From Candidatus Latescibacterota bacterium (GTDB lineage Bacteria > Latescibacterota > UBA2968): a stretch of DNA of 64,000 nucleotides. Of the stretch, positions 1 through 62,488 are shown piece by piece. The notes under the pieces are model-generated. The model was not told where the DNA came from. It searched no databases and saw only the letters and a program-made list of their open reading frames with translations. Made by a program: the position numbers and the translations under genes. Numbering within the stretch: the stretch's first letter is position 1; each line of letters begins with the position of its first letter. Location: assembly GCA_965204745.1 (NCBI GenBank), contig OZ242010.1, positions 5,120,001 to 5,184,000 of the forward strand, in the 5' to 3' direction.

Positions 1-2433
1 GCAGATGGGTTGATCCACAACCGGGTGTACGACATCGAACCCGATCCCGATGGCGGCGTGTGGATTGCGACCTTGCGCGGGTTGAGCCATTACAAAAATG
101 GCAAGTGGACTTCGCACCTCGTCGATGGGGTGCCGGTTGCGGGCGTGCGAAATGCCAATGTGCATGAAGGCCGCAAGACCTACGACCTGTTCTACGACAA
201 AGACGGCGCGCTTTGGGCCGTGCATGGGGCGGTCATCGGGCGCACCATCACGCGGGCCATGGGGGGGATTTCCCGTTTCGACGGCCGGACCTACACGCAC
301 GACGGCGCCCCGGTTTGGACGCACCACAACGCACATCGGGGATTGCCCATCTTTGCGTTTCGAGACGTGAATCAAACGGCCAACGGGGATTTGTGGTTCG
401 GCACGCATCGAGACGATCACACCCGAGTCGAAGCCCGCGGCTTGGTGCGGTACAGGGACGGCAAGTGGTTGCGCTTCACGCGCAGGCACGGCTTGCACGG
501 GGATTTTGTCTGCGTCTGCGGCATGGTCGAAAAAGGGGATGGATCATTTTACGCGCGTTTTTCCGGCTCTGACGAGGTCTTGTACCGCCCCCCCACGGAC
601 AGCTTGGCCTCTATTTCTGGGCAGGTGATCGGGCAAATCGCGCCGAGCCTGGGAATATGGGTCGCGTACGACGATGGCGAGGTACACGCCGGAACCACGA
701 CAGATGAAGCGGGGAACTACCGCGTCGACGTCACGCCGGGGTCGTACCGCGTGCGAATCGCCTCCATAAATGCCGCTGACCCCGTGCCCGTTGAGGCCAA
801 ACCCGGCGCGCGCATCAACGGCATCGACCTTCGGTTGCAAAAATCGCGTCGCATCTCTGGGCGCGTCCTCGATTCATTCAAAAATCCGATTCCCAATGCG
901 GTGGTGGTGATTTCCGACAACGCAAACGACAAACGCCTCTCGCCCCAAATCGCGGTTACAGATGCCCAGGGGAGATATGGGGGTTGGCGGGGCGAGGGAT
1001 CGCCGGTCTCTTTCACGTATGCTGCAAAAGGGTATGCACAGGCGGGCCGCGAGATAGAAACAGACAGCGTCGAAATGCCGAATGCCACGCGATACACGTT
1101 GCCCCTAAAAAAGGGAAAGACCCTGCGCGGGCGCGTTGTCGATGGAGAAGGCGAGCCGATTCCGTGGGTGCGCGTTGGCCTGGGGCCCGAAGTCGATTCC
1201 GAGGAGAAAGTCATGCCCTTTCAGCGCAACGCGTACACGGACGAGGCGGGTTTGTTCGCGTTGGATGACGTGGATGAAACGGGCGGCCTCCTTTGGATGA
1301 ACCATCCGACTATCGGCGTCGTCAGTCAAAACGCCGTGCCTGCGGATAGCGTGGTTGACCTCCGCGTGATGCGCGTGCGGTATTATTCGGTTTCGGGCGT
1401 GGTGTCGCTACACGGGGGGGCCGCGAAAAACTTTGCCGTTATGGCCTTGCCGCGCAAACGCTCAAGTGAGCCGCTGTCCGTGCGTCCCCAAACGACAGAT
1501 GCGGATGGCGCGTATCGCTTGGACGATCTGAAACCGGGAGACTATCGGATTTCCCTAAGCACGTCTATGAAAATGGAAGTGGATGGACGCAAGCACGAGA
1601 TCTATCACCAAATTCGCTATCGGCATGTGGCGATTGAAGACCGCGACCTAACGCTGAACTTTGAACCCTTGGGCGATGCGCGGCTCACCGGCGTTGCAAC
1701 GCACGACGGACAGCCGGTTCCGGGCGTGCTCGTCCTCGCCAGCGTATTGGATTCCCTCGATGCCGATGCCCCCCAAAATGCTTTGGCGAATGGCACGATG
1801 ACGGACAAAGAGGGCTTTTTTGACTTGCGCGACCTGCCCAATGCGCGCATCCGCATTTCCTTTTCCAAACGCCCACTGCACAGCGCCGGTTCTTCTGGCA
1901 AAAAACGCTATGCCAAGTCCGATACGCTCGACCTAACGGATCAGCGGGCATTGAGTTATTTCGCGGATTTGGCGGCGGAGGAACGCGCATCTTTGCGCGT
2001 GGGGGATATGGCGCCCGATATCGAGGCCAAACGCCTTGACGGCTCGACATTTCGCCTCGCGGATTACCGGGGCAAAAAAGCCGTCCTAATCGACTTTTGG
2101 GCGACGTGGTGCGGCCCGTGCATTGACGAACTCCCCACTATCGAGAAAATCGCCGAGACGTACCGCGATCAGGGGTTGGAAGTCGTAGGCGTCAGTTTTG
2201 ACCGGGATCGGCAGACATTGCAAAATTTCGTGGCAAAGGAACAGTTGCCCTACATCCAAGTGTTCGACAAAGACGAGGAGCAAACCCTCAGAAAATCTTA
2301 TGGCGTGTGGGGGATTCCGTCTGTATTTTTGATCGACAAAGAGGGGGCCATCCACGCGCTCGGCCTCCGCGGCTCTCGCATCGAAACAGCGGTCCAAGCA
2401 TTGCTGAAAGCAACTGAAAGGCAAAAAAGGTGA
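1..2433 (+). CDS. Large modular protein, 5'-partial: beta-propeller (two-component regulator propeller-like) repeats, carboxypeptidase-regulatory-like beta-sandwich repeats and a C-terminal TlpA/AhpC-TSA thioredoxin domain
   Basis: D-x-DG-x-W-x-x-T propeller repeats; I/LSGRV...TD..G.Y repeats; C-terminal 'APDIEAKRLDG...LIDFWATWCGPC' CxxC motif; frame open from the window edge. Confidence 0.75.
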   Translation, partial: ADGLIHNRVYDIEPDPDGGVWIATLRGLSHYKNGKWTSHLVDGVPVAGVRNANVHEGRKTYDLFYDKDGALWAVHGAVIGRTITRAMGGISRFDGRTYTHDGAPVWTHHNAHRGLPIFAFRDVNQTANGDLWFGTHRDDHTRVEARGLVRYRDGKWLRFTRRHGLHGDFVCVCGMVEKGDGSFYARFSGSDEVLYRPPTDSLASISGQVIGQIAPSLGIWVAYDDGEVHAGTTTDEAGNYRVDVTPGSYRVRIASINAADPVPVEAKPGARINGIDLRLQKSRRISGRVLDSFKNPIPNAVVVISDNANDKRLSPQIAVTDAQGRYGGWRGEGSPVSFTYAAKGYAQAGREIETDSVEMPNATRYTLPLKKGKTLRGRVVDGEGEPIPWVRVGLGPEVDSEEKVMPFQRNAYTDEAGLFALDDVDETGGLLWMNHPTIGVVSQNAVPADSVVDLRVMRVRYYSVSGVVSLHGGAAKNFAVMALPRKRSSEPLSVRPQTTDADGAYRLDDLKPGDYRISLSTSMKMEVDGRKHEIYHQIRYRHVAIEDRDLTLNFEPLGDARLTGVATHDGQPVPGVLVLASVLDSLDADAPQNALANGTMTDKEGFFDLRDLPNARIRISFSKRPLHSAGSSGKKRYAKSDTLDLTDQRALSYFADLAAEERASLRVGDMAPDIEAKRLDGSTFRLADYRGKKAVLIDFWATWCGPCIDELPTIEKIAETYRDQGLEVVGVSFDRDRQTLQNFVAKEQLPYIQVFDKDEEQTLRKSYGVWGIPSVFLIDKEGAIHALGLRGSRIETAVQALLKATERQKR

Positions 2434-2459
2434 GACGTGAGAAGGGAGAGGGGAGAGGG
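2428..2459 (+). repeat. Purine-rich heptamer repeat module (RAGASGN)n containing the upstream stop codon
   Basis: AGGTGAGACGTGAGAAGGGAGAGGGGAGAGGG; same family at 25035, 30701, 32004, 34714, 47505, 50845, 54830, 56605. Confidence 0.8.
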
Positions 2460-2479
2460 CAACCGTGTTATCCCGTTCA

Positions 2480-2532
2480 AGTGGTCAGTGGTCAGTGGTC
2501 AGTGGTCAGTGGTCAGTGGTCAGTGGTCAGTC
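2480..2532 (+). repeat. Tandem heptamer (AGTGGTC)x7
   Basis: Perfect 7-bp tandem read directly; same family (CAGTNGT) at 4768-4858, 32051-32082, 47335, 54783, 56556. Confidence 0.95.
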
Positions 2533-2603
2533 CCCACCCTTCCACCCCAAGGCAATGTATGTGCTGATCGCTCGTTTTGCTGATCGCTAAAATACGAGAC
2601 GGG

Positions 2604-2692
2604 AGATGGAAGTTTAGTCACGAGCGGGGTATAGCTGGCGACAGCGCGTTCAAAGGTGAGCAGTGTGTAGGGGCGACGCCCCGTGCTCACCC
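2604..2692 (+). repeat. Dispersed palindromic repeat (degenerate copy) followed by GTAG-type REP-like hairpin
   Basis: GAGATGGAAGTTTAGTCACGAGCGGGGTATAGCTGGCGACAGCGCGTTCAAAGG matches 27474, 30590, 34833, 48620(rc), 53247(rc); followed by GTAGGGGCGACGCCCCGTGCTC. Confidence 0.8.
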
Positions 2693-3607: not shown

Positions 3608-4816
3608 ATGAATTACGCCATTGTTCTCGCCGCTGGATCCGGGACGCGGATGGGGACAGACATCCCAAAGCAATTTCTCGACCTTGCCGGGCGACCCGTA
3701 TTGGCGTGGACCCTGACCGCATTTGAACGCGCTGACCGCATTGATCGCGTCATACTCGTCGTGGGCCGCGAGCGTGTCGATGCCTGTCGAGAACAATTTG
3801 GCGGGCCGCGATTTCCCAAAGTCGTCGCTGTGGTGCCCGGCGGTGCAAAACGGCAGGATTCCGTGGCGTGCGGGTTGCGGGCCATTCCGGCAACCGCGGG
3901 TGTGGTTGCTGTTCACGATGGCGCACGGGCTTATGTGCGGCCCGAGGATATCAACGCCGCAGTCGTCGCAGCGGCTGACCGCGGCGCCGCGGTCTTGGGC
4001 ACGGCCGTCACGGACACGATCAAGCGCGTGCGCGGGGATCGAGTCGCAGAAACTTTGGATAGATCGACCTTACGCACGGTGCAGACGCCCCAAGCCTTTC
4101 GCCGCGCGATAATCTGCCGCGCCCATCGATCAGCGCGTGAATCGGGCTATGTGGGCACAGACGATGCGGCCTTAGTTGAGCGACTGGGCGAGGAGGTCGT
4201 CATCGTACCCGGACGACGAGACAACATCAAAATCACATCGCCCGGAGACCTCGACTTGGGAGTGCATATCTTGGAACAACGAGGCGACATAACACCCGCA
4301 TTGCGAATCGGCCAGGGCTATGACGCGCATCAACTCGGGGCCGGCCGGCCCCTGATCTTGGGCGGCGTGCATATCCCGCACGAGAAAGGGTTGCTCGGGC
4401 ACTCGGACGCCGATGTGCTCATCCACGTCGTCATAGACGCTGTGCTCGGCGCGCTGGGCGCAGGCGATATCGGACAGGTCTTTCCCGACACAGACCCCGC
4501 GTACAAAGACATTTCGAGTCTCATCCTGCTCGCACGGGTGGGCGACCTCCTCAAAAAATCGCAGGCGCGGCTGATCAACGTAGATGCCACCGTCATCGCG
4601 CAACGCCCAAAACTGGCCCCGCACATTTCACGCATGCGCGAAACCATGGCGCGGGCATTGGACATCTCGATCCAGCGCATCTCAGTCAAAGCGACCACCA
4701 CCGAACACATGGGCTTCATCGGCCGCGAAGAAGGTATGGCAGCGCAGGCAGTGGCTCTGGTGAAAATCAGTAGTCAGTGGTCAGTAGTCAGTAGTCAGTC
4801 CCCGCACCGCCCCTGA
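3608..4816 (+). CDS. ispDF: Bifunctional IspD/IspF (MEP cytidylyltransferase / MEcDP synthase)
   Basis: 'LAAGSGTRMG...PKQF', 'VHDGAR', 'QTPQAF', 'TDD'; then 'RIGQGYDAH', 'GHSDADV', 'KATTTE'; C-terminal tail is repeat-encoded. Confidence 0.95.
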   Translation: MNYAIVLAAGSGTRMGTDIPKQFLDLAGRPVLAWTLTAFERADRIDRVILVVGRERVDACREQFGGPRFPKVVAVVPGGAKRQDSVACGLRAIPATAGVVAVHDGARAYVRPEDINAAVVAAADRGAAVLGTAVTDTIKRVRGDRVAETLDRSTLRTVQTPQAFRRAIICRAHRSARESGYVGTDDAALVERLGEEVVIVPGRRDNIKITSPGDLDLGVHILEQRGDITPALRIGQGYDAHQLGAGRPLILGGVHIPHEKGLLGHSDADVLIHVVIDAVLGALGAGDIGQVFPDTDPAYKDISSLILLARVGDLLKKSQARLINVDATVIAQRPKLAPHISRMRETMARALDISIQRISVKATTTEHMGFIGREEGMAAQAVALVKISSQWSVVSSQSPHRP

Positions 4817-4866
4817 AACCAGTAGTCAGTAGTCAGTGGTCAGTGGGCAGTAGTCAGTCCCCGCAA
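4768..4866 (+). repeat. Two copies of a (CAGTRGT)4-CAGTCCCCGCA unit
   Basis: 4768-4806 and 4820-4865, read directly; the first copy is translated as the IspF tail SSQWSVVSSQSP. Confidence 0.9.
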
Positions 4867-17027: not shown

Positions 17028-17099
17028 GCTTGGGCGGTGGCGGGGCGGTCTCACCTCTTCCGTCTCCCCTCTCACCGAAGGGGGGTTGGGCGGTGCGGG
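17028..17099 (-). repeat. Composite repeat (CCGCCCAACCCCCCTTCGGT + heptamers)
   Basis: Shares modules with 25012-25068, 32083-32170 and 50825-50886. Confidence 0.7.
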
Positions 17100-25011: not shown

Positions 25012-25068
25012 GCTTGGGCAGTGGCGGAGCGGTCTCCCCTCTCCCTTCTTACCTCTTACGTCTCCCGC
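25012..25068 (-). repeat. Heptamer repeat module supplying the transketolase stop codon
   Basis: rc GGGAGACGTAAGAGGTAAGAAGGGAGAGGGGAGACCGC. Confidence 0.8.
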
Positions 25069-27299
25069 CTTATCACCTCAATCAACGCCTCTGCGGTAAT
25101 GCCGAAGTGTGCCCATGTTTTTTCGAGTCCTTCTGATGGCGCGATGCGCGGGTCCGTGATGCCCACATGCGCGTGGGCAATGCCATTGCAAGCCGTGCTC
25201 ACCAACCCGGCGAATCCGCGCAGGCCCGTTTCCGGGGTGCCGATTTTGCCATCTTCAATGGTCGCTATGCCCGCGTAATTTTTCAGCAGGGCGTCCAACG
25301 CGCCATCCGGCAGGGGCAACCCGTTGACGACATACACATCGGTTGGAATGCCGGACGCCGCGAGGGTCTCGGCAGCCTCTGCGGCCAAAAAGGCCGGCGC
25401 GCCAAAGGCCAAGATCGCGTGCTTTGCCCCCGCGTACTTGCGATAGGCGGTTATCGCCTCCCATGCCTGACTCGGATGCCACAGGGGACCTGATCCATCT
25501 TGTGCTTGCAAAACGGGCAAACCCGAATCGCGCGGTATGCCTATCACATGCCCGCCGTAGTGCGCGGCCATGTCTTTCACGGCCAAGAAGGCCACGCGCG
25601 CATCGGCCGGGGCGTAAAACCTGTGCAAATAGGGCAAGTACGTCAGGCCCACGTTGATCCAATCGAGGCCCCAGCCCGAGAAGTGATCGCGCCCGGTACA
25701 CGCGCCCACATGCGAGAGGTGAAACACCACATTGAGCCCCTCGTTGATCCCATTCAGATTGCGCTGATACTGCCACATGTCGAAGCCCTCGCGGGCGATG
25801 CCCTCAAAAAACGCGGCAAAGGTCGAGACCACATTGAGTTGCGGTTCATCCGTGCTCATCGCCAAGCCATTTGCCATGAGCGCGGCGGCTTGCTCTTCGA
25901 TGCTCATCTCGAACTGGTGATCGCCCGATAGATGCGCCCGCGCCCCCGAGAGTTTTGTCGAGGGATCGAGATCGCAACTCACCACAAACACGCGGTCGGG
26001 ATGCGTCTCTGCCAGCGAGGTGTACGCCGCGGCCGCGCCATCGCGGGGGCTCGCTTTCTCGGTCGGCAATTCGACCGCCGAGGCTTTGTCTTCAGATAGT
26101 GCCAGATTCGCGCTTCCGGGCGCGGGTCTGGCTTTTGTGATGACAGTGCGCGTGCCCCTGTTTCGCAGGGTTGCGAGCGCGTGGGCTTGTTCTGCTGTGG
26201 GTTGAAACATCGCGCCGTCGAGCACGTCTGCGGGGTCGCGGCCCTGCATGCTCCCGTCGTGGTGATTCGCGCCGCCGGGCAGGTCGTTGACCAAGAACAG
26301 GCATTCTAGCATTGGCTCTGGATCGCGGAAACTCATCAGAGAACCCGGGATCCACACGGGTTTGTCTATCGGCACATCGTGGCGCGCGGCAAATGCCTCG
26401 ACAGCGTCTGTGATGCCATAGCGTTCCCCAAAGGTCTTCAGGGTCACATCTTCGCCCGAAAATCCGATGGGATAGATCAAACTCGGCTTGCCCTGTTGCG
26501 CGAGATGATAGCCTTCCCGATACGCCGCATAGAGCGCGGCATTGTCGTGGAGCGATGCGATTTCCAACACCTCCACCCCGAGCGCGGAAATGACGCTTCG
26601 GGGGTCTATGTCCATAATGCTCGCCGTGCTACCGGACAACTGAATGCCGTTGCGGTGCATCACAAACGTGATGGGGGCACCGTGGACACTCGCGGCATTA
26701 AACCCGTTGAGTGCCTGCCCGGAAATCCAGCCCGCATCCCCGCAATGGGCAATGACCCAGGCGCGGTCGCGCCGTGCTTTTTTGCCTAATGCCATGCCCA
26801 CTGCGGCCGGGATCATGACGCCCAACCGCCCGCCGTTGAGTTGCGTTCCCCCGGGCAACCACGCCACATGCCCGGGAAAATCCAGCCCGCGCCGAAAGTT
26901 CTGTACGACCCGCTCCGCCTCGACAAAGCCAAACCCGGCCAGAGCCGAGTAATACCCGATGCTCGTGTGCGCGTGTTCGATGGTATAAGCGCGTCGCTCG
27001 TAATCCACAACCGCCAGGGTCATCAACAACCCGGGGGTGAGTTCCAACCCGCCGCCCAAGTGGTCCAATTCCCCGATTTCGGCCAACGATGCCAGCGCCC
27101 GAATCGCCGTGTGCGCGCTTTCGATTTGCAACGCGGTCAATGCGCGGTCTTCCATCTCGCCCAGAACCCCGGTCGTCTCAATATCAATATGCAGTGCCAA
27201 CACATCGGACGCGATTTCCCGCCCGAGAAAATGCGTCTCATTCAACAGCGCGTCATTGCGCCGCCCCTGCTTTTCGGTCATCGCCTTCACGTTTGCCAT
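25056..27299 (-). CDS. Divergent transketolase-like ThDP-dependent enzyme
   Basis: 'DHLGGG', 'FPGH', ThDP motif 'GDAG...N', 'DLDPST', 'SIEEQ', 'STFAAF', C-terminal 'TIEDG'; start reassigned to MANVK (27299). Confidence 0.75.
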   Translation of the reverse strand: MANVKAMTEKQGRRNDALLNETHFLGREIASDVLALHIDIETTGVLGEMEDRALTALQIESAHTAIRALASLAEIGELDHLGGGLELTPGLLMTLAVVDYERRAYTIEHAHTSIGYYSALAGFGFVEAERVVQNFRRGLDFPGHVAWLPGGTQLNGGRLGVMIPAAVGMALGKKARRDRAWVIAHCGDAGWISGQALNGFNAASVHGAPITFVMHRNGIQLSGSTASIMDIDPRSVISALGVEVLEIASLHDNAALYAAYREGYHLAQQGKPSLIYPIGFSGEDVTLKTFGERYGITDAVEAFAARHDVPIDKPVWIPGSLMSFRDPEPMLECLFLVNDLPGGANHHDGSMQGRDPADVLDGAMFQPTAEQAHALATLRNRGTRTVITKARPAPGSANLALSEDKASAVELPTEKASPRDGAAAAYTSLAETHPDRVFVVSCDLDPSTKLSGARAHLSGDHQFEMSIEEQAAALMANGLAMSTDEPQLNVVSTFAAFFEGIAREGFDMWQYQRNLNGINEGLNVVFHLSHVGACTGRDHFSGWGLDWINVGLTYLPYLHRFYAPADARVAFLAVKDMAAHYGGHVIGIPRDSGLPVLQAQDGSGPLWHPSQAWEAITAYRKYAGAKHAILAFGAPAFLAAEAAETLAASGIPTDVYVVNGLPLPDGALDALLKNYAGIATIEDGKIGTPETGLRGFAGLVSTACNGIAHAHVGITDPRIAPSEGLEKTWAHFGITAEALIEVIRRET

Positions 27300-27473
27300 A
27301 AGTGCTCCAAAGAGTGATGAACAACTCGCCGCAACCCTCCCATTGCCGCAGGAGGGGACAGGCCCCGACAAATCAAAATGCCCCTAAAATAAACGTTCCC
27401 CGCGCAACAAGCCAGAAAAAAGCCCAGATACAAAGTTCTGGCATCAGGGCCGGGTCTATATTATGTTTAAGGC

Positions 27474-27567
27474 GAGATGGAAGTTTAGCCACAAAAGGCA
27501 CGAGCGGGGTACAACTGGCGATAGCCAGTTCAAAGGCACAAAAGGGGTACAACTGACCACTGACCAC
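27474..27567 (+). repeat. Composite repeat: TTTAGCCAC + CACAAAAGG 9-mer + AACTGGC-GATA-GCCAGTT palindrome + heptamer
   Basis: Near-identical to 30590-30694 and to rc of 48652-48727 and 53247-53300. Confidence 0.88.
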
Positions 27568-27586
27568 TTTCTCACAGGAGGCCACC

Positions 27587-30081: not shown

Positions 30082-30591
30082 ATGCCTTATGCAGACCACA
30101 TTGAGCAGGCCAAAGACCCCGTCACCTGTGCGGTGCTCACCATCAGCGATACGCGCACCAAAGCCGATGACAAAAGCGGTCAGATCATCCGCGAATCGGT
30201 CGAAGCCGCAGGTCACAACATCGCGTTTTATCGCGTGGTAAAAGACGATGCCGCGCAGATTCGCACCCTGATCGAACAAATCGCCGTAGCGGGCGAATGC
30301 CACGTCATTCTCACCAATGGGGGCACGGGCATTGCCGCGCGCGACACCACTTATGAAGCCGTCACGAGCCTGCTCGAAAAACGCCTCGACGGATTTGGCG
30401 AAGTCTTTCGCTTTCTCTCATGGGAAGACATCGGCTCGGGGGCCATGCTCTCGCGCGCTGTTGCAGGCGTGTACAAAGACACGATGATTTTCTGCATGCC
30501 CGGCTCATCCGGCGCGGTGCGACTGGCAATGGAAAAACTCATCGTTCCCGAACTCTCACACCTCGTCTGGGAAATCTGGCGGCAAAAGTGA
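30082..30591 (+). CDS. moaB: MoaB/MogA molybdenum cofactor biosynthesis protein
   Basis: 'VLTISDTRT...DKSG', 'V.DD', 'TNGGTG...RD.T.EA', 'GFGE.FR', 'AMLSRA', 'PGS'. Confidence 0.92.
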   Translation: MPYADHIEQAKDPVTCAVLTISDTRTKADDKSGQIIRESVEAAGHNIAFYRVVKDDAAQIRTLIEQIAVAGECHVILTNGGTGIAARDTTYEAVTSLLEKRLDGFGEVFRFLSWEDIGSGAMLSRAVAGVYKDTMIFCMPGSSGAVRLAMEKLIVPELSHLVWEIWRQK

Positions 30592-30715
30592 GATGGGATT
30601 TTAGCCACGAGCGGGGTACAACTGGCGACAGCCAGTTCAAAGGCACAAAAGGCACAAAAGGGGTACAACTGGCGATAGCCAGTTCAAAGGCACAATCGGT
30701 GAGACGCAAGACGGG
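30589..30715 (+). repeat. Composite repeat (two palindromes, 9-mers, heptamers); left flank of IS110
   Basis: GTACAACTGGCGAYAGCCAGTTCAAAGGCAC x2, then GAGACGC-AAGACGG. Confidence 0.88.
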
Positions 30716-30733
30716 AGATACTCTCTTAAAAGG

Positions 30734-31741: not shown

Positions 31742-31784
31742 GGGGGCCTCCTGTGATGAGGGGGTTGTAAGGGATCTGGTGCGC

Positions 31785-31990
31785 GCTCGGGGTCCCGACC
31801 ATTGACGCCAAGTCTACCGGTCTTGTATATGCAGCCTCAAGGGGCTTAGATACTCTTCGGCATAGACCCGGCGGTCGGGGGGCCTATCTTACCTACAAGG
31901 TCATCGCCTTCAAGAGGGGCCGGCCTTCCCCGAGCCGGGCATCAAGATGGCTTATCTCGATACGAGGGCGCAACTCCTAATTAACCCTTA
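31785..31990 (-). ncRNA. Predicted bridge RNA (5' hairpin, target-binding loop, donor-binding loop)
   Basis: Nested stems GCTCGGGG/CCCCGAGC, CCCGACC/GGTCGGG, GTCTA/TAGAC, GGCC/GGCC; internal loops contain exact copies of donor halves (31848-31856, 31822-31828) and a target left-half match (31913-31919). Confidence 0.85.
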
Positions 31991-32003
31991 CTTCCAAGAT
32001 ACA

Positions 32004-32262
32004 AGAGGGGAGACGGGAGAGGGAAGACGGGAGAGGGGAGACGGGAGAGGCAGTAGTCAGTTGCCAGTAGTCAGTGGTCAGTCCGCCCCGCCCAACTCCC
32101 TTCGGTAAGAGGGAAGACGAGAAATACAAGAGGGAAGACGCAAGAGGGAAGACGCAAGAGGGGAGAGGGGTGGCCTTCTTGCCTCTTGCCTCTTGCCTCT
32201 CACCTCTTGCCTCTCACCTTTTTGGGCGATGCTCCCGTGCGCCCGAAGATACAAGAGGTGAG
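32004..32262 (+). repeat. Composite repeat block: (RAGASGN)n, (CAGTNGT)n, CCGCCCAACTCCCTTCGG, inverted heptamer arms
   Basis: Direct reading; 32107-32170 and 32178-32219 are opposite-strand heptamer tracts able to form a hairpin. Confidence 0.88.
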
Positions 32263-32344
32263 GCAACACCGCCCAACCGCATACCCATCCCAACACCGCC
32301 GTGTGCATTGGCGATCAGTAGTCCCTCTCTCCAAGGAAAAAATT

Positions 32345-34729
32345 ATGCACCTCTATGTGAAAATGCTCGCTCTGAGTTTCTGCTTGGTTCAAGCGGCAGA
32401 TGCGGAAACAAATTGGTCGAATTGGGGCGGGCCCAATCGAAATTTTCGGATTGACGACGCAGGCGTTTTTCCAGCCGATCAGCCCTACGCACTGCGGGTC
32501 GTTTGGAAAAAGCCGCTCGGTGCGGGATATTCGCCCGTTTCCGTGCGCGGGGATCTGGCAGTGACGATGTTTTCCGACGAAATTTTTGATTACGTCATCG
32601 CCTTCAACGCAAGAGACGGATCGGAGCGATGGAAACACGACATCGGCGCCGCGTATTTGGGGCATTACGGCTCGCAAAGCGGCCCCTTGTCAACGCCGGT
32701 TTTGACCGAGGATAAAGTCATCGCCCTAGGCCCTCGGGGCAACCTGTTCGCGCTCGATGCAAAGACGGGCGAAAAACTCTGGGCGGTCGATCTCGTTGCG
32801 GACTATGGGGCCAAAGCGCCGTTTTGGGGCTTTACCTCATCGCCGATTTTATACGACAATCGCCTGATCGTGCAAACGGGGGGTACGCACGCGATTTCGG
32901 CGTTTGACCCCGAATCCGGCGGTTTGATCTGGTCGGCCCTTGCCGATGCGGTCAATTACCAATCCCCGGGCTTGTTCGCGGTTGGCAATCGCAACCACTT
33001 GGTCTTTTTGGGCAACACCTATCTCGCGGGGCTATGGCCCGAAACCGGTGACGTACTCTGGCAATTTGCCCATCGCGGGCATACCGGCGCGGTCAACGCG
33101 AGCGGGCATCCGGTCGCGGTTGGCGAAGGCCGGTATTTTGTGAAGAACGGCGGGATGCTGGTGGGCGTGCGCGCAGATGGCGACATGTTTGCAGTTGGGG
33201 AAATTTGGCGCACGCGCCACATCCGAGGAACGTACATCGACGCGGTTTTTAATAAGGGCCTGCTGTTTGGCTACAACCGCCGCATTCTCACTTGCATCAG
33301 CGCGGACACGGGAGAACGCTTGTGGCAATCGCGCGAACCGGGCGATGGGTTGCCCATTGTCGTGGACGATCATCTCGTCATCATAACAAAAGACGGCAAA
33401 TTGGCGGTGGCACGGGCTTCGGGCGAGGGGTATCGGGAAACCGCTCGGTTGGCACTCTTTGACGATATCGCCTGGTCACACGCCAGCTTTGCCCATGGCG
33501 GGTTTTACGCGCGCAGCATGTCGGAAATCGCCCGCGTTGAGGTCATACCCGGAATCGCAACGGCAAGGGGCAAACCGGATGGGATGATGGCGAACTCGCG
33601 GTTTGCGCGCTTTGTCACAGAGGTCAATCGAGCCACCCATAAGAAAGCGCGGATCGACTCGTTTATGGCGCGGCAAAAGACCTTTCCGATTTTGGAAGGC
33701 GATCAACTCGCGCATTTTGTGTATCGCGGCGACGCGGACGAGGTAAGCGTAACGGGCGATCACACCGGGCGGCGATTCGATCAGCCCATGCGCCGCATTG
33801 AGGGAACAGATTTGTTTTATCACACGGCCCGCCTCGACGCGGACGCCCGCATCACCTATCACTATACGCTCAACTTACAGCGCGTCGTTCCGGACCCGCA
33901 CAATCCGCGACAACTTCGCTCGCTCTTTTTTGGGCGCGCCTCCTGGTTTGGGATGCCGCGCTGGCGGTTTCCCGATCATCTGAAAAAGCGGCGAGATGGG
34001 GTTCGCGGCCAAATCGATTCCCTCGGCTTTGAGAGCGCGGCGATTCCGGACTATCGCAAATTGGAGGTCTATCTGCCTGCGGGGTACGCGGAAGGCGATG
34101 ATCGCCATCCCGTTGTGTACGTCCACGCGGCGCGCCGACAGTGGTCATTGGGGAAAGTGGACGTTTCGCTGGACAATATCCTCGGCGCGAGCGTGCGACC
34201 CGTCATCGTGGTTTTTGTTCCGTCTCTTTTTGGCGGCGGATATTCCGAGTACGTGGGGGAAAAGCGCGATGCTTACCTGCGGGTTTTCACCGATGAGGTC
34301 GTGCCTTATATCGATCAGACGTATCGCACGCTCAAGCACCGCGAAGGCCGGGCAAATATGGGAACCATCTACGGCGGGTTTATGGCTTTTTACGCGACCT
34401 TTAAGCATCCGAAATTGTTTGGCAACCTCGCCATCCAATCCATGTCATGGGATCAGACCGCCGAGGCCAACGACGCCGCGCTGGTCTTTGAGGCGTCATC
34501 CCAATGGCCGATGAAAATTTATTTGGACTGGGGAAAGTACGATTTGCGAAGCCCAATGGAGGGCAATGACTTGGGCGAGAGCACGGCGTCCTTTGCGCGC
34601 CTGCTGCACGCCAAGGGATACGCGTTCACAGGCGGCGAAGTCAACGACGGCGCGGGTTGGGCGAGTTGGCGAAACCGCACAGACGAGGTGTTTGAGGCAC
34701 TCTTTCCTTCGGTGAGACGTAAGAGGTGA
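32345..34729 (+). CDS. Secreted PQQ-like beta-propeller protein fused to an enterochelin-esterase-like alpha/beta hydrolase domain
   Basis: Signal peptide, 'W..W.GP.RN', repeated 'A.DA.TG..LW'; then 'D.R..Y.Y', 'DP.NP', 'VYLPAGY', 'EVVPYID..YR'. Confidence 0.78.
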   Translation: MHLYVKMLALSFCLVQAADAETNWSNWGGPNRNFRIDDAGVFPADQPYALRVVWKKPLGAGYSPVSVRGDLAVTMFSDEIFDYVIAFNARDGSERWKHDIGAAYLGHYGSQSGPLSTPVLTEDKVIALGPRGNLFALDAKTGEKLWAVDLVADYGAKAPFWGFTSSPILYDNRLIVQTGGTHAISAFDPESGGLIWSALADAVNYQSPGLFAVGNRNHLVFLGNTYLAGLWPETGDVLWQFAHRGHTGAVNASGHPVAVGEGRYFVKNGGMLVGVRADGDMFAVGEIWRTRHIRGTYIDAVFNKGLLFGYNRRILTCISADTGERLWQSREPGDGLPIVVDDHLVIITKDGKLAVARASGEGYRETARLALFDDIAWSHASFAHGGFYARSMSEIARVEVIPGIATARGKPDGMMANSRFARFVTEVNRATHKKARIDSFMARQKTFPILEGDQLAHFVYRGDADEVSVTGDHTGRRFDQPMRRIEGTDLFYHTARLDADARITYHYTLNLQRVVPDPHNPRQLRSLFFGRASWFGMPRWRFPDHLKKRRDGVRGQIDSLGFESAAIPDYRKLEVYLPAGYAEGDDRHPVVYVHAARRQWSLGKVDVSLDNILGASVRPVIVVFVPSLFGGGYSEYVGEKRDAYLRVFTDEVVPYIDQTYRTLKHREGRANMGTIYGGFMAFYATFKHPKLFGNLAIQSMSWDQTAEANDAALVFEASSQWPMKIYLDWGKYDLRSPMEGNDLGESTASFARLLHAKGYAFTGGEVNDGAGWASWRNRTDEVFEALFPSVRRKR

Positions 34730-34893
34730 GACGTGAGAGGGGAGAGGCAAGAGGTGAGACGTAAGAGGTGAGACGTAAGAGGTGAGACGTAAGAGGTGAG
34801 ACGTGAGACGTGAGACGTGAGACGTAAGAGGTGAGTTTAGCCACGACTGGCGACAGCCTGTTCAAAGGCGAGCAGTTCGCCCAAAGATACAAG
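34714..34893 (+). repeat. 17 tandem heptamers (RAGASGN) followed by the palindrome module
   Basis: GAGACGT/AAGAGGT alternation 34714-34832, then TTTAGCCACGACTGGCGACAGCCTGTTCAAAGGCGAG. Confidence 0.93.
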
Positions 34894-34931
34894 GTCAGTC
34901 ACCACCTATCTGCCCCGAAGATCGAAAAAAC

Positions 34932-47183: not shown

Positions 47184-47350
47184 TGATGGAGACCTTGTAA
47201 AATGAAGATGAAAACATTAAGAATAAATCAGCTCGAGCATACGCAAAGTCTAATATACAGGAATGCCTTTACGAGTCAAGCAATAAGTTTTGCTCTAAAA
47301 AAGCTGTTCGCTGTCACCAGTTTTGTTTGGTGAATCAGTTGTCAGTTGTC

Positions 47351-47417
47351 AATGCGAATTAAGAGTAGAAAGCGAGTAAGAAGCAAGCCGCGGTCAATCG
47401 TCCAAAGACAAGAACGA
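47351..47417 (-). mobile_element. Second, shorter IS982 right-end remnant
   Basis: Reverse complement of about 23828-23894 with two mismatches seen. Confidence 0.8.
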
Positions 47418-47504
47418 CTCATCCATTATAGGATCGCACTTTAGAACTCGTCAAAAAAACGATGTCCCCTCCTCCGGCTCTTCCCCGCAACGGAGAGATG
47501 TTAT

Positions 47505-47540
47505 TCCCCCTTGTATCTCCCCTCTTGCCTCTCCCGCCTC
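47505..47540 (-). repeat. Heptamer module immediately after a stop codon
   Basis: rc GAGGCGGGAGAGGCAAGAGGGGAGATACAAGGGG. Confidence 0.75.
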
Positions 47541-48538: not shown

Positions 48539-48595
48539 TTCTCACTCCTTGTTGAAAGCAAATCAAAGTGCGTCGGGTCTTGAGAAGCGGGGAAG

Positions 48596-48745
48596 CTCTC
48601 CCTTCTTGTATCTTTGACCGAGCACGGGGCATCGCCCCTACACACCGCTCGCCTTTGAACTGGCTGTCTGCCAGTTGTACCCCTTTTGTGCCTTTTGTGC
48701 CTTTTGTGCCTTTTGTGGCTAAAATCCCTTCTCACCTCTCCCCTG
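48596..48745 (-). repeat. Composite repeat: heptamers + (CACAAAAGG)x4 + palindrome + GTAG REP-like hairpin
   Basis: rc order: GGGAGAGGTGAGAAGGGATTTTAGCCAC(AAAAGGCAC)n GGGGTACAACTGGCAGACAGCCAGTTCAAAGGCGAG...GTAGGGGCGATGCCCCGTGCTC..AAAGATACAAG. Confidence 0.88.
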
Positions 48746-48748
48746 TCG

Positions 48749-50824: not shown

Positions 50825-50886
50825 CCGCCTAACCCCCTTCGGGAAGAGGGAAGACGGGAGAGGTGAGAGGCAAGAGGGGTAGGTCC
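50825..50886 (+). repeat. Composite repeat (CCGCCTAACCCCCTTCGG + heptamers + GGTAGGTCC)
   Basis: Matches 32089-32119 and the REPIN end at 62085-62094. Confidence 0.75.
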
Positions 50887-50911
50887 CAATGGATTCAATG
50901 CTTAATTCGCA

Positions 50912-53246: not shown

Positions 53247-53530
53247 CTTTTGTGCCTTTGAACTGGCTGTCGCCAGTTGTACCCCTTCTGTGCCTTCTGT
53301 GGCTCGCCTTTCACCAATTCGTAGCCTTTTGTGCCTTTTGTGCCTTTTGTGGCTCGCCTTTCACCAATTCGTAGCCTTTTGTGCCTTTTGTGCCTTTTGT
53401 GCCTTCTGTGGCTCGCCTCACCAATTCGTAGCCTTTTGTGCCTTTTGTGCCTTTTGTGGCTCGCCTTTCACCAATTCGTAGCCTTTTGTGCCTTTTGTGC
53501 CTTTTGTGGCTCGCCTTTCACCAATTCGTA
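53247..53530 (-). repeat. Five-unit ~50-bp tandem array of gene-end 23-mer + (GCCTTTTGT)3-4, followed by palindrome module
   Basis: GGCTCGCCTTTCACCAATTCGTA at 53301, 53351, 53410 (2-nt deletion), 53458, 53508. Confidence 0.95.
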
Positions 53531-54657: not shown

Positions 54658-54780
54658 AACCATCCTCCATAAGTGAATCGACGAATCGATCTGTCGGTGA
54701 ACTGCTAAATTGTCGTACTTCGTTCCGCACATTCGGCTGAGCACGGAGGCATCGCCCCTACGACGGGGAGTGGGCGGGGC

Positions 54781-54896
54781 GGACTGACAACTGACGACTG
54801 ACAACTGACAACTTGAGAGGAACAGCGCGGTGGCCTTCTTGCCTCTTGCCTCTCACCTCTTGCCTGGCGGTTGGGCGAACGGGTGGAAACTGACCT
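54781..54896. repeat. Direct repeat copy 1 flanking AAA ATPase gene
   Basis: 54801-54896 matches 56574-56669 at 94 of 96 positions by eye; extends 20 bp further with 3 mismatches. Confidence 0.92.
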
Positions 54897-56490: not shown

Positions 56491-56553
56491 GGGTTATCCC
56501 TCAATTCATCTACAAATCCTCAAAGTGCGTCGGATGTTGGGGTTGTTGGGAGA

Positions 56554-56669
56554 GGACCGACAACTGACGACCAACAACTGACAACTTGAGAGGAACAGCG
56601 CGGTGGCCTTCTTGCCTCTTGCCTCTCACCTCTTGCCTGGCGGTTGGGCGGCCGGGTGGAAACTGACCT
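56554..56669. repeat. Direct repeat copy 2, includes the last codons and stop of the 521-aa gene
   Basis: See copy 1; encodes QVSFHPAAQPPGKR*. Confidence 0.92.
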
Positions 56670-59956: not shown

Positions 59957-59969
59957 AGCGATATTTCCT

Positions 59970-60073
59970 TCCGTGCGTGTTCTCATCCTCTCCGCCTCGC
60001 CACCCGTGCGTGCCCAACCTCTCCGCCTATCCGGCCGTGCCCCGCTCATCCACCCTGCCACCCGTGCGTGCCC
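59970..60073. repeat. CCCGTGCGTGCCC motif cluster (also at 58279)
   Basis: Copies at about 60003, 60061 and 58279 bracket ATPase paralogue 2. Confidence 0.6.
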
Positions 60074-60252
60074 ATCCCCCCGGCCCCGTTATTCGCTTCG
60101 CTCATTGTAGGCTACGCCTGTGCCTACAAGGAAAGGGGAGCATAGCTTGCTTGATGGATGAGAACAAGGGCTGTTTTTATGGCTTTGAGCCAGCGCATCC
60201 TGCGATTAAAAACCCGTCACACCACCCCTCGCAAAACCCATCTTCATTCCCC
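60074..60252 (+). repeat. REPIN/MITE-like element copy A (right arm truncated)
   Basis: ~120-bp core nearly identical to 61931-62050 and 62202-62320. Confidence 0.88.
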
Positions 60253-60253
60253 G

Positions 60254-60877: not shown

Positions 60878-61907
60878 TCATGAGCACAACCACGCCCACG
60901 ACGATCCACACCATGCGACCTTCCTTACGATCCTTAACCGATTCTTGATCATGTGCAGGCTCAGGACGCTCAACATCGGGCGGTGGCGAGATTTCCGGCG
61001 CAGGAACCGGCGACGGATCATCAACAGGCGTGTCGTTCAACTCGGCGCGCCATTCGGACACACTTTGCGGACGGGCAGTCTCATCCACTTGTAGCGCGTG
61101 ATCGATAGCGGCGAGAAATTGGTGGCTCGCACGGCCCTTGCACCGATCCGAAACCGGAATCAGCGGATCGCGGCGCACCCTATCCATTGCCGGAATCGGC
61201 ACATCGTCGGTCAAGGCGCGATAGCACACGCACCCCAACGCATAAATATCTGTCCAAGGCCCTTGATTGCCCCGGCTTTCATATTGTTCGATAGGCGCGT
61301 AACCCGGCGTCACAATGGCTGTCACCGAACGGCTCATCGCACCCACAGCTTGACGCGCCGCGCCAAAGTCGATCAACACGGGCGAGCGATCCTCGGCGCG
61401 AATGACGATGTTGCCCGGCTTGATGTCCCGATGCAAAAAATCCGCACGATGCACCGCCGCCAAGCCATCGAGAATCGGATTCAGAATCGCCTTGAGTTCC
61501 GATTCGGTCAGCACCCCTTTGCGGTTGAGATACTCGGACAAAGTCTCGCCCTCGGCGTATTCCATCACGATATACGCCGTGTTGTGTTCTTCAAAAAAGC
61601 GATGCACCTTGACGAGATGGCGATGGTCAAATCGGGCTAAGGTGCGCGCTTCGTCCAAAAAGCGTTCCAGACCCCACTCAAAGTCGCCTTGAAACTCGCT
61701 CGCCTGCGGCACGACGCTGTTGTCGCTTGTGCGGATGGCGATATCCGAAGGCAGATATTCCTTGATCGCCACGGGTTTGTCCAAGTTGTGATCATACCCC
61801 AAATACGTCATGCCAAATCCTCCAAACCCGAGCACGCGCACCAGTTCGTATTCCTGGAGCCGATACCCATTGGGCAGGGCATTGATGGGTTGTTGTGCGT
61901 CGTTCAT
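60831..61907 (-). CDS. Hanks-type Ser/Thr protein kinase with TM helix (frameshifted before the YWTD domain)
   Basis: 'LG.GGFG.TY', 'VAIKEY', 'HRDIKPGNI', 'DFG', 'GYAP.EQ', 'D.YALG'. Confidence 0.9.
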   Translation of the reverse strand: MNDAQQPINALPNGYRLQEYELVRVLGFGGFGMTYLGYDHNLDKPVAIKEYLPSDIAIRTSDNSVVPQASEFQGDFEWGLERFLDEARTLARFDHRHLVKVHRFFEEHNTAYIVMEYAEGETLSEYLNRKGVLTESELKAILNPILDGLAAVHRADFLHRDIKPGNIVIRAEDRSPVLIDFGAARQAVGAMSRSVTAIVTPGYAPIEQYESRGNQGPWTDIYALGCVCYRALTDDVPIPAMDRVRRDPLIPVSDRCKGRASHQFLAAIDHALQVDETARPQSVSEWRAELNDTPVDDPSPVPAPEISPPPDVERPEPAHDQESVKDRKEGRMVWIVVGVVVLMIGPCNLYLRRETTIN

Positions 61908-62094
61908 GGGATCTATCCCCCGGCCCCTTTCCTACAAGGAAAGGGGAGCATAGCTTGCTTGATGAATGAGAACAAGGGCTGTTTTTATGGCTTTGAGCCA
62001 GCGCATCATGCGATTAAAAACCCGTCACACCACCCCTCGCAAAACCCATCCTAGTTCCCCCTTCCTCGTAGGAAGGGGGTTAGGGGGTAGGTCC
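61908..62094 (+). repeat. REPIN/MITE-like element copy B
   Basis: Inverted palindromic arms GGATCTATCCCCCGGCCCCTTTCCTACAAGGAAAGGGG ... CCCCCTTCCTCGTAGGAAGGGGGTTAGGGGGTAGGTCC. Confidence 0.88.
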
Positions 62095-62176
62095 TCATAA
62101 GGAAAGGGGAGAAGTGCTTCTTTGATGGCTTATATCAATAGCAGTTCCGATGGCTTTGTGCAAGGGCATGTGGCAT

Positions 62177-62398
62177 GGGACCTATCCCCCCGGCCCCCTT
62201 TCCTACGAGGAAAGGGGGAGCATAGCTTGCTTGATGAATGAGAACAAGGGCTGTTTTTATGGCTTTGAGCCAGCGCATCATGCGATTAAAAACCCGTCAA
62301 TCCCCTCTCGCAAAACCCATCCGCGTTCCCCCTTCCTCGCAGGCACAGGCGTAGCCTACAACGAAGCGTAGCGAGTAACGGGGTTAGGGGGTAGGTCC
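62177..62398 (+). repeat. REPIN/MITE-like element copy C (insert in right arm)
   Basis: Tandem with copy B; both preceded by CAT and followed by TCATAAGGAAAGGG. Confidence 0.88.
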
Positions 62399-62488
62399 TC
62401 ATAAGGAAAGGGAGAGTAGGGCTTTTTTGCTTAGGCTGTTTTTCATCGTCTTGCGCGAGTGAATAATGCCATGAAAAACCAAACCCTC

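What the first reader, a model, noticed from the sequence alone, without database searches (positions are those of the whole stretch)
2428..62415. Combinatorial lexicon of short repeat modules at gene boundaries
Seen: at least 14 intergenic loci are built from the same few modules in recurring order: (CAGTNGT)n; (RAGASGN)n; TTTAGCCAC-(AAAAGGCAC)n; palindrome GTACAACTGGC-GAYA-GCCAGTTCAAAGG; GTAGGGGCGAYGCCCCGTGCTC; CCGCCYAACYCCCTTCGG; and CCCCTTCCT..AGGAAGGGG arms. Loci are at 2428-2692, 4768, 17028, 25012, 27474, 30589, 32004, 34714, 47505, 48596, 50825, 53247, 54781 and 56554. The purine-rich strand is usually the sense strand of the gene just ended (50845 is an exception). They cluster beside accessory genes (TA, defence, ATPases) and are absent inside the act/cox, frd and pgk-tpi operons. 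No cognate mobiliser (e.g. RAYT) is in the window. Inference: an undescribed repeat-writing or repeat-directed gene-cassette system rather than independent microsatellites.
Basis: partly seen in the sequence, partly recalled or inferred. Interest (0 to 1): 0.75.

Follow-up and report, generated by a model that had tools for sequence, protein, structure and literature searches.

The report
Gene-end-docked heptamer repeat mosaic
One fifth of the gaps between genes in this uncultured marine bacterium hold short 7-base and 9-base tandem repeats mixed with small hairpins, an extreme case of a known but unexplained kind of bacterial repeat that starts right at the ends of genes.

Summary
The modules are real and far from chance. 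Genome-wide there are about 825 heptamer arrays of two families, in 661 of 3,228 gene spacers. They are not independent microsatellites. Neighbouring arrays of the two families share orientation 93:12, and conserved linkers join them in a fixed order. The arrays are also polar. Their 5' end lies within 10 nt of a gene in 246 of 713 loci, against 36 for the 3' end and about 61 expected per side. Often the stop codon is the first three bases of the first unit.

I found no RAYT in the genome, no terminal inverted repeats or target duplications at two empty sites, and no bias towards foreign-looking genes. The families are species-specific blooms. Array lengths differ between natural strains by 7 or 14 nt.

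An IS110-family element in the window has 52 near-identical copies, all at one site inside the purine-rich arrays.

The same polar docking is published for heptamer repeats of Xanthomonas and Anabaena.

My best reading (0.4) is selfish or neutral repeats spread by slippage plus template switching, filtered by selection at coding boundaries, and used as landing pads by insertion sequences. Earlier notes of this scan already recorded insertion sequences in these arrays, and a similar mosaic in another genome.

The parts
2428..2692 (+). Composite locus: B array (2428-2459), linker H, A array (2480-2531), C-rich linker, then a degenerate E/P and hairpin F (2667-2688). It is docked: the TGA stop of the upstream thioredoxin-fusion gene (ends 2433) lies inside the first B unit.
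4767..4865 (+). Two A arrays, each followed by a C-rich linker. The first begins inside the last 50 nt of ispDF (3569-4816). This docking point is shared by four species.
17028..17095 (-). A short B array of about 4 units, flanked on both sides by C-rich linkers, in a divergent spacer upstream of glnB/amt.
25025..25075 (-). B array overlapping the stop codon of the gene 25056-27371 (minus strand), in sense orientation.
27472..27568 (+). E, C, P, C, then two A units on the minus strand. The locus ends about 20 nt before the ATG of 27587-28360, next to its ribosome-binding site. G016 has no repeats here, and G018 and G001 hold other modules.
30589..30713 (+). Starts at the TGA stop of the MogA-like gene (30082-30591): E, P, C x2, P and B units, then interrupted by the IS110 element.
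30714..32003 (-). IS110-family insertion sequence (transposase 30734-31741). It is one of 52 near-full-length copies, all at the same site inside B arrays.
32004..32300 (+). B, A, K (32079-32106) and B; then a head-to-head B/b inverted pair (32127-32219) that folds into a long hairpin; then a reverse F-like hairpin, B and a C-rich linker. G016 has only about 45 nt (mini B-A-K) across the whole 30593-32336 interval.
34711..34900 (+). A 125-nt B array that begins 6 nt before the ancestral stop of the gene 32186-34729, followed by E, a degenerate P and an F-like tail.
47335..47540 (.). A dispersed repeat of about 190-200 nt that begins with A units (8 or more further copies in the genome at 87-95% identity), plus B units on the minus strand (47505-47535) next to the stop of the gene 47540-48538.
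48560..48748 (-). B, E, C x4, P, F, B and a further linker, starting a few nt after the stop of the gene 48749-49930. G018 has 14 nt here. G016 has a short E/B remnant.
50826..50900 (+). K followed by B (50841-50878), antisense to both flanking genes. It abuts the end of an element with terminal inverted repeats.
53247..53530 (-). P plus a 50-nt higher-order repeat (about 5 copies) made of C units and a 24-nt piece. That piece copies the stop codon and last four codons of the enolase-family gene 53518-54804. G016 has one copy.
54740..54893 (-). C-rich linker, B, H, A, C-rich linker and F-like hairpin, starting at the stop of the AAA_35 ATPase gene 54895-56490.
56505..56665 (-). A 161-nt insertion relative to G016 (empty site). 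Its right 125 nt are a near-identical copy of the 54.8-kb block. The open reading frame 56626-58191 reads through the linker and stops in the B array. There is no target duplication; a 5-nt microhomology lies at one junction.
61905..62420 (.). One copy has a nested insert of about 40 nt at 62338-62378.

Best explanation
This is a lineage-specific bloom of polar heptamer microsatellites (families A and B), interleaved with 9-mer arrays and small REP/BIME-like hairpins (P, F) and joined by C-rich linkers.

Shown:
- The arrays change length in whole units.
- They are joined in a fixed order and orientation.
- Their 5' end sits at coding boundaries.
- Module content turns over between sister species.
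- An IS110-family element inserts site-specifically into B arrays.

Inferred:
- No dedicated transposase moves the modules.
- New copies arise when a 3' DNA end on the gene side of a break or stalled fork anneals to any of the hundreds of identical units elsewhere. It copies array, then linker, then the next module, and returns by microhomology.
- Slipped-strand mispairing then expands or shrinks each array.
- Selection removes events inside genes and tolerates those at the stop codon, because the sense strand of the arrays carries stop codons in all three frames.
- The arrays act as shared joints, so modules reassort into a 'lexicon'.
- Their main consequences are spacer inflation and safe landing pads for insertion sequences.
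For: - Unit-sized change between natural strains: +7 nt at 48596 in run X6, and a 14-nt gap in an X12 contig across 56056-56643.
- In-place growth from small ancestral versions: 2-3 units at the ispDF end in G016, G018 and G001; a mini B-A-K in G016 where G000 has 1.7 kb; one copy of the 50-nt unit in G016 against 5 in G000.
- New copies without target duplication: a 161-nt block at 56.5 kb absent from G016, with a 5-nt microhomology at one junction, 125 nt of it copied from a locus 1.7 kb away. At 34.7 kb the array starts 6 nt before the ancestral stop, where the coding sequence resembles a linker tail.
- Free reassortment at arrays: the unit type of A arrays is independent of the linker variant (p=0.30). 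Upstream and downstream flank classes of A arrays are independent (p=0.35). Orientation is nevertheless kept 93:12.
- Sharp array edges and 94.9% internal identity.
- Polar docking: 246 of 713 loci on the 5' side against 36 on the 3' side, with 60.7 expected per side.
- No Y1/RAYT transposase in the complete genome and only one reverse transcriptase domain.
- Blooms: A pattern 1,036 matches in G000 against at most 58 in the 40 relatives searched. B pattern 1,833 in G000 and 1,911 in G018, against at most 59 in the rest of the genus.
- Arrays occur in G001 and G009, which have no IS110 domain match. So IS110 is not needed to make them.
Against: - Template switching is inferred from only four junction comparisons. 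No event was caught in progress.
- When the array starts 1-30 nt after the stop, stop-codon type is not associated with array family (p=0.54). So the stop codon is not shown to be the microhomology used.
- The model does not by itself explain why the C-rich linker is almost always kept at the 3' end of A arrays.
- It also does not explain why closely related G016 escaped the bloom.
- B arrays show some left-right coupling (p=2.6e-6).
- Docking at gene starts rests on my crude start-codon calls and may be partly an artefact of open-reading-frame calling.
- Counts of the linker in relatives could not be made.
Confidence: 0.4

Rival explanations
1. The composites are non-autonomous mobile elements moved in trans by an encoded recombinase. 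Candidates are the IS110-family bridge-type recombinase, another insertion-sequence transposase, or a RAYT that has since been lost.
For: - The blooms are species-specific and look like transposon bursts.
- Hairpin F carries a GTAG tag like RAYT-mobilised REPs (PMC3733652 passages).
- IS110 domain matches number 57, 18, 7, 0 and 0 in G000, G018, G016, G001 and G009. This loosely tracks B abundance.
- The F-to-B junction resembles the IS110 end next to its target.
Against: - No terminal inverted repeats and no target duplication at two filled/empty comparisons.
- Endpoints vary, and left and right neighbours are independent.
- No Y1 transposase in a complete genome.
- The composite's other end does not match the IS110 end.
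- Arrays exist in G001 and G009 without IS110.
- G018 has as many B matches as G000 with a third of the IS110 copies, and almost no A.
Confidence: 0.2
2. The arrays are selected cis-elements of gene ends. Possible roles are a three-frame stop pad, a spacer followed by a C-rich Rho-loading site in the 3' untranslated region, or a binding site for a translational regulator, as proposed for start-proximal heptamers in Beggiatoaceae.
For: - In sense orientation the arrays begin at or within a few nt of the stop codon (129:33 for B, 78:17 for A).
- Sense B units and one A unit type contain stop codons, which a 7-nt period presents in all frames.
- A C-rich, G-poor linker follows the arrays.
- The docking point at ispDF is conserved in four species.
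- PMC4679880 (abstract) proposes a translational role for a related heptamer.
Against: - About half of the loci face a gene start rather than a stop (350 against 363).
- Orthologous genes in G016 or G018 lack the arrays or carry other modules.
- Two of the three A unit types have no stop codon in the sense strand.
- There is no link to gene function.
- Copy number is unconstrained: median 4-5 units, up to 335 nt.
Confidence: 0.15
3. Each array is an independent microsatellite born by slippage at its own locus, for example from stop-codon plus ribosome-binding-site-like sequence. The shared lexicon would be convergence.
For: - Whole-unit length variation between strains.
- In-place expansion from 2-3 units.
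- Stop codon followed by the B-like tetramer is 3.5 times enriched at array-free genes (30 of 2,156).
- The published slippage idea for heptamers (PMC4692102 passages).
Against: - Conserved non-repetitive linkers of 17-30 nt recur at tens to hundreds of loci in fixed order and orientation.
- A 125-nt block has been copied between loci.
- Only two unit families account for 825 arrays.
- Seed sites are too rare, at 1.4% of genes.
Confidence: 0.1

Closest known systems
Heptameric intergenic simple-sequence repeats of Xanthomonas and Nostoc/Anabaena (Rehm et al. 2015, PMC4692102; passages and section 13 read)
   Same: - One 7-nt motif in tandem at a hundred or more intergenic loci.
- About equal numbers on both strands, with no leading/lagging preference.
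- The same polar docking: close to the 5' neighbouring gene whatever its orientation, on the coding strand after stop codons (including overlaps with the stop) and on the non-coding strand before starts.
- Length and sequence variation between close relatives.
- No link to gene function.
   Different: - Their units are G-rich and form quadruplexes; these are not runs of G.
- Here there are two co-oriented families plus 9-mer arrays and hairpins joined by conserved linkers.
- The density is several times higher (661 spacers).
- They report no association with insertion sequences; here IS110 and other insertion sequences sit in the arrays.
- They found repeats at conserved locations; here module content turns over between species at about 90% identity.
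Start-proximal heptamer direct repeats of marine Beggiatoaceae, Cyanobacteria and Bacteroidetes (MacGregor 2015, PMC4679880; abstract and outline read)
   Same: - Tandem heptamers that contain stop codons, at 169 intergenic sites.
- Patchy phylogenetic spread with no known mechanism.
- The published unit differs by one base from one A unit type read on the minus strand (comparison by eye).
   Different: - There most sets lie just upstream of start codons, with 2-6 copies, and a translational role is proposed.
- Here the robust docking is at stop codons. Docking at starts is uncertain.
REP sequences and BIMEs, the bacterial interspersed mosaic elements (Di Nocera et al. 2013, PMC3733652, passages read)
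   Same: - Short GC-rich hairpins, one with a GTAG tag.
- Mostly downstream of genes.
- Clustered in mosaics with other motifs.
- Abundance differs between related species.
- Used as insertion-sequence targets.
   Different: - No RAYT in the genome.
- The bulk of the DNA is tandem heptamers, which BIMEs lack.
- The hairpins here usually occur singly rather than as inverted pairs.
IS110-family elements that target repeats (Durrant et al. 2024, PMC11208160, passages read; ISPpu9, PMC12288879, abstract in a search listing)
   Same: - The window element has both IS110 domains and no terminal inverted repeats.
- All printed copies sit at one sequence-defined site in a high-copy intergenic repeat.
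- The paper says IS110 elements often target repetitive elements such as REPs.
   Different: - The target here is a tandem heptamer array, not a palindrome.
- The bridge RNA was not looked for.
- This explains what uses the arrays, not what makes them.
Cyanobacterial STRR heptamers and the small dispersed repeats of Nostoc
   Same: As I recall them: tandem heptamers in spacers of heterocystous cyanobacteria, and tiny elements nested in heptamer arrays and in MITEs.
   Different: Not checked here. Only later papers that use the term STRR appeared in search listings.

Membership tests
Polar heptameric intergenic SSRs (as in PMC4692102) | The same 7-nt unit in tandem at many intergenic loci | tested here: met
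   383 A and 442 B arrays. 240 of 254 and 457 of 538 regex arrays are intergenic.
Polar heptameric intergenic SSRs (as in PMC4692102) | Closer to the 5' neighbouring gene; on the coding strand after stops, including overlaps with the stop | tested here: met
   246 of 713 loci docked on the 5' side against 36 on the 3' side, with 60.7 expected. B 129:33 and A 78:17 sense:antisense within 30 nt of stops.
Polar heptameric intergenic SSRs (as in PMC4692102) | On the non-coding strand just upstream of start codons | tested here: inconclusive
   86 of 206 A arrays lie within 30 nt of a predicted start. However, starts are longest-frame guesses bounded by stop codons in the array. One clear case is at 27548-27568.
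Polar heptameric intergenic SSRs (as in PMC4692102) | G-rich unit able to form quadruplexes | not tested
   No quadruplex prediction was run. By eye the A units lack G runs.
REP / BIME | Imperfect palindrome of 20-40 nt at high copy outside genes | tested here: met
   P folds as a 7-bp stem and F as a compound hairpin. The P core has 134 copies. F has 82 copies, 69 of them intergenic.
REP / BIME | A cognate RAYT (Y1 transposase) in the genome | tested here: not met
   PF01797: 0 matches in the single-contig genome, while the control genomes gave matches. The paper notes that REPtrons can be missing in some species.
REP / BIME | Mosaic clusters with other conserved motifs | tested here: met
   168 of 797 loci hold two or more arrays. 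Recurrent linkers.
MITE (for the array composites) | Terminal inverted repeats and target-site duplication | tested here: not met
   Neither feature at the empty-site comparisons with G016 and G018. Endpoints vary. The separate element at 61.9-62.4 kb does have inverted ends.
Integron cassettes / attC | One array of co-oriented cassettes next to an integrase | tested here: not met
   Loci are spread evenly at 69-128 per 500 kb, with near-equal array counts on the two strands. The integrase itself was not searched for.
IS110 family (element 30714-32003 only) | DEDD and Transposase_20 domains; site-specific insertion without inverted ends | tested here: met
   PF01548 at 1.2e-24 and PF02371 at 4.8e-20. 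52 near-full copies; the 45 printed junction pairs share one target context.
IS110 family (element 30714-32003 only) | Bridge RNA in the non-coding end that pairs with target and donor | not tested
   Rfam at gathering threshold found only a tRNA in the window. No fold of 31742-32003 was made.

The most novel reading that the evidence does not exclude
The C-rich linker is the recognition site of an unidentified activity, either a protein or an RNA-templated polymerase. This activity writes heptamers directionally from the linker towards the nearest coding boundary. The arrays would then be actively generated gene-end modules, and the published polar heptamers of Xanthomonas, cyanobacteria and Beggiatoaceae would be products of the same kind of machinery.
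Probability: 0.08. Interest if true: 0.9.

Novelty: new variant of a known kind. Interest (0 to 1): 0.5.

Why it matters
Tandem heptamers that pile up next to genes have been noted in cyanobacteria, Xanthomonas and sulfur bacteria for decades (the early date is from recall), without a mechanism. This clade offers a natural experiment. It has complete genomes at about 90% identity in which one species has both families in bloom, a second has only one, and a third has almost none. Filled and empty sites are still alignable, and natural populations show unit-sized variation. That makes the origin of the repeats and the cause of their polarity testable by comparison.

The case also shows a bridge-type IS110 element specialised on a microsatellite. 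It goes with unusually fragmented gene order, so it bears on how small repeats shape genome architecture in uncultured symbionts.

If the repeats are only selfish or neutral, the practical value is for annotation. Stop codons and starts next to these arrays are easily miscalled.

Tried and rejected
- RAYT as mobiliser: no Y1 transposase in the genome.
- Retro-mobilisation: only one RVT_1 match.
- Known RNA families: only a tRNA at 19450-19533.
- Replication-strand bias: the cumulative GC skew gave no clean origin or terminus, and orientations are about 50:50.
- Accessory-gene association: the proxies point the other way.
- Arrays as markers of rearrangement: 31 of 72 break ends against 21 of 38 colinear gaps, so no difference.
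- Local homogenisation: nearby A arrays share a unit type only slightly more often than random pairs (0.36-0.44 against 0.33).
- Stop-codon type as the entry microhomology: p=0.54.
- The linker after some A arrays as an outward promoter: only 14 exact copies, 4 of them within 100 nt of a start.
- My first orientation count related each array to both neighbours and hid the polarity. Distance-resolved counts replaced it.
- Technical dead ends:
  - A fuzzy-regex scan timed out.
  - Ungapped matching was too strict for two linkers.
  - A 12-mer repeat mask covered 48% of the genome and was replaced by 14-mers.
  - One search used wrong G016 coordinates for two rows and was redone.
- Counting the C-rich linker in relatives was not done, so it remains open whether arrays nucleate at linkers that were already there.
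- No RNA holder was listed among the public runs.
- Supplementary tables of the cited papers were not opened.
- The phylum name (Latescibacterota) comes from earlier notes of this scan and was not verified. The runs that hold the stretch are labelled sponge or marine metagenomes.

Full report
**What is there.** The window is bases 5,120,001-5,184,000 of a single-contig genome of 5,482,115 bp with 56.5% GC. I name modules by window coordinates:
- B: the purine-rich heptamer (34711-34835).
- C: the 9-mer (48682-48717, minus strand).
- E: its 17-nt head (30592-30608).
- P: the palindrome (30616-30643).
- F: the GC hairpin (2667-2688).
- K: the C-rich linker (32079-32106).
- H: the B-to-A linker (2460-2479).

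All 14 loci hold these modules.

**Not chance.**
- Tandem Repeats Finder gives 4,547 rows for the genome. Of these, 1,195 have period 7, and 788 of those have three or more copies, built from only 62 distinct units.
- After merging there are 383 A, 442 B and 114 C arrays, plus 79 arrays of a fourth family (a 9-mer not in the finding). Together they cover 45.6 kb in 797 loci.
- Reversed-pattern controls give 0 matches against 1,036 for A, 5 against 1,833 for B, and 0 against 134 for the P core.
- By my own crude gene model (3,820 genes, 83% coding), 661 of 3,228 spacers hold an array.

**Not independent microsatellites.**
- Adjacent A and B arrays are co-oriented 93 times and opposed 12 times. 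B followed by C is co-oriented 23 times against 1.
- Flank clustering shows a grammar. A is nearly always followed by a C-rich linker. That linker leads into B. B leads either through a linker back to A, or through E into C, P, F and back to B.
- Twenty-four B arrays run head-to-head into a reversed B array across a conserved centre. The example at 32120-32225 folds with z = -5.2.
- The arrays still behave as free joints. The unit type of an A array (163, 115 and 95 arrays of three types, 94.9% internal identity) is independent of the linker variant that follows (p=0.30). Upstream and downstream flank classes of A arrays are independent (p=0.35). B shows some coupling (p=2.6e-6).

**The main new point: polar docking.** My first count related every array to both neighbours and showed little orientation bias. 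Resolving by distance changed that.
- Within 30 nt of a stop codon, B arrays are sense 129 times and antisense 33 times. A arrays are sense 78 times and antisense 17 times.
- Per locus, the 5' end lies within 10 nt of a gene in 246 of 713 cases and the 3' end in 36. If each locus were placed at random in its own spacer, 60.7 would be expected per side (binomial 1e-39).
- The asymmetry survives when loci are extended through any repeated 14-mers: 237 of 363 on the 5' side, against 88 of 352 and 51 of 361 on the 3' side.
- In many cases the stop codon is the first three bases of the first unit.
- Ortholog alignments confirm that these are real gene ends. At ispDF all four species carry 2-3 or more A units at the same point. 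At 2431 the stop position is conserved and the composite begins there. At 34.7 kb the array starts 6 nt before the ancestral stop.
- In an 80-kb sample of G018, 4 of 14 purine-rich arrays lie within 30 nt of a stop codon in sense orientation and none in antisense.
- Docking at gene starts (about half of the loci face a start) is less certain, because my start calls are bounded by stop codons inside the arrays. One clear case ends about 20 nt before the ATG at 27587.

**Claims that do not hold.**
- Genes flanking arrays have higher GC and codon scores than genes flanking controls. In the window they mix housekeeping and defence genes.
- Absence from operons follows spacer length.
- Arrays are as common at variable colinear gaps (21 of 38) as at synteny break ends (31 of 72).
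- There is no replichore pattern.

**Turnover between species.**
- Among 41 genomes, the A pattern has 1,036 matches in G000 and at most 58 elsewhere, with 23 in G016 and 1 in G018, the two closest relatives (about 90-92% identity).
- B has 1,833 matches in G000 and 1,911 in G018, at most 59 in the rest of the genus, and 15-159 in a genus of the sister family.
- The P core has 134 matches in G000, 34 in G018, at most 3 in four other genomes, and none in 35.
- Orthologous spacers carry different modules in each species. Some sites are empty: 6 bp in G016 against 161 nt at 56.5 kb, and 14 bp in G018 against about 200 nt at 48.6 kb. Others hold small ancestral versions.
- Contigs of public runs labelled sponge or marine metagenome differ from the window by +7 nt at 48596 and by 14 nt across 56056-56643.

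**Enzymes.**
- No Y1/RAYT transposase and one reverse transcriptase domain.
- The gene at 30734-31741 is an IS110-family transposase.
- The element has 52 near-full-length copies, most at 99% identity. Every printed junction lies at the same site inside an antisense B array.
- Its relatives in G018 also sit in arrays. In G016, which lacks arrays, they sit in short pyrimidine motifs.
- Domain matches number 57, 18, 7, 0 and 0 in G000, G018, G016, G001 and G009. G001 and G009 have arrays without IS110, so the element exploits the arrays rather than making them.
- This matches the published habit of IS110 elements of targeting repeats (PMC11208160, passages).
- About 24 A arrays abut the end of another element, in line with earlier notes of this scan on IS5-type and IS982-type elements.

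**Mechanism.** The following are shown: whole-unit length change, in-place growth, copying of a 125-nt block between loci 1.7 kb apart without target duplication and with a 5-nt microhomology, sharp array edges, reassortment at arrays, and polar docking.

I infer a transposase-free cycle.
1. A 3' end on the gene side of a break or stalled fork anneals to one of hundreds of identical units elsewhere.
2. It copies array, then linker, then the next module, and returns by microhomology.
3. Slippage then resizes the arrays.

Synthesis runs away from the gene. That would put the array-to-linker direction on the coding strand at gene ends and on the non-coding strand at gene starts, which is the geometry seen. 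Copying in the other direction would run into the donor's own gene. Selection tolerates events at the stop because the sense strand supplies stop codons in all frames. I put this at 0.4. The rivals are trans-mobilisation (0.2), a selected gene-end function (0.15) and independent microsatellites (0.1).

**Comparison with what is known.**
- The same polar docking, including overlap with stop codons and indifference to gene orientation, is described for heptameric repeats of Xanthomonas and Anabaena (PMC4692102, section 13).
- A near-identical heptamer occurs at start-proximal sites in Beggiatoaceae (PMC4679880, abstract).
- The hairpin mosaics resemble REP/BIME (PMC3733652, passages).
- Searches for such repeats in this phylum or in sponge symbionts found nothing relevant.

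I therefore file this as a new variant of a known, mechanistically unexplained kind. It is unusual for its density, its two-family grammar, its species-level blooms and its IS110 specialisation.

Noticed in passing
window 30714-32003; 52 copies genome-wide: An IS110-family element in a very recent burst (most copies 99% identical). It always sits at one site in antisense purine-heptamer arrays. One place has two copies separated by a single heptamer unit.
   Followed up: yes
G000 against G016 and G018 (80-kb samples L011-L018): Gene order is extremely fragmented. 80 kb of either relative maps to about 20 separate places in G000, in blocks of 0.4-5 kb at 84-94% identity. The window itself maps to many places in the relatives.
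   Followed up: partly
window 47336-47540: A dispersed repeat of about 190-200 nt that starts with A units. There are 8 or more further copies in G000 at 87-95% identity, and shorter matches in G002, G006, G011, G014 and G018. In G011 these often lie at contig ends.
   Followed up: no
window 60060-60260 and 61905-62420: An element of about 270 nt with terminal inverted repeats; its k-mers occur 150-190 times in the genome. The copy at 62203-62420 carries a nested insert of about 40 nt (62338-62378) inside a hairpin. The insert is itself part of a family of about 200 copies.
   Followed up: partly
genome-wide (79 arrays); also G016 spacers in L017/L018: A fourth tandem family, a 9-mer not listed in the finding, with conserved flanks on both sides. 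It looks like a dispersed element with an internal variable repeat.
   Followed up: no
window 53284-53530: A 50-nt higher-order tandem repeat (about 5 copies). Its unit includes the stop codon and last four codons of the upstream enolase-family gene. G016 has a single copy.
   Followed up: partly
window 10070-10555, inside the ORF 9938-10678 (minus strand): Nested 21-, 33-, 66- and 120-nt tandem repeats inside a 246-aa open reading frame, suggesting a repetitive, perhaps coiled-coil, protein.
   Followed up: no
genome-wide k-mer consensus; position not looked up: A 39-nt sequence present about 195 times that looks like a CRISPR repeat.
   Followed up: no
genome-wide, genes without arrays: The commonest context after a stop codon is one particular TGA-plus-four-base word (50 of 2,156 genes). 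This suggests another conserved gene-end motif.
   Followed up: no
window 3243-6642, 24223-24744, 28341-30035, 54895-60061: Defence-type genes: a HicB antitoxin, a GmrSD nuclease, an AbiEii fragment, an AIPR protein and three tandem AAA_35-type ATPase paralogs. The composite after one paralog has been copied to the next.
   Followed up: partly
G018 locus L014, orthologous to window 50813-50914: G018 has five copies of a heptamer that differs from the A unit by one base, followed by a similar C-rich linker. This hints at species-specific 'dialects' of the unit.
   Followed up: partly
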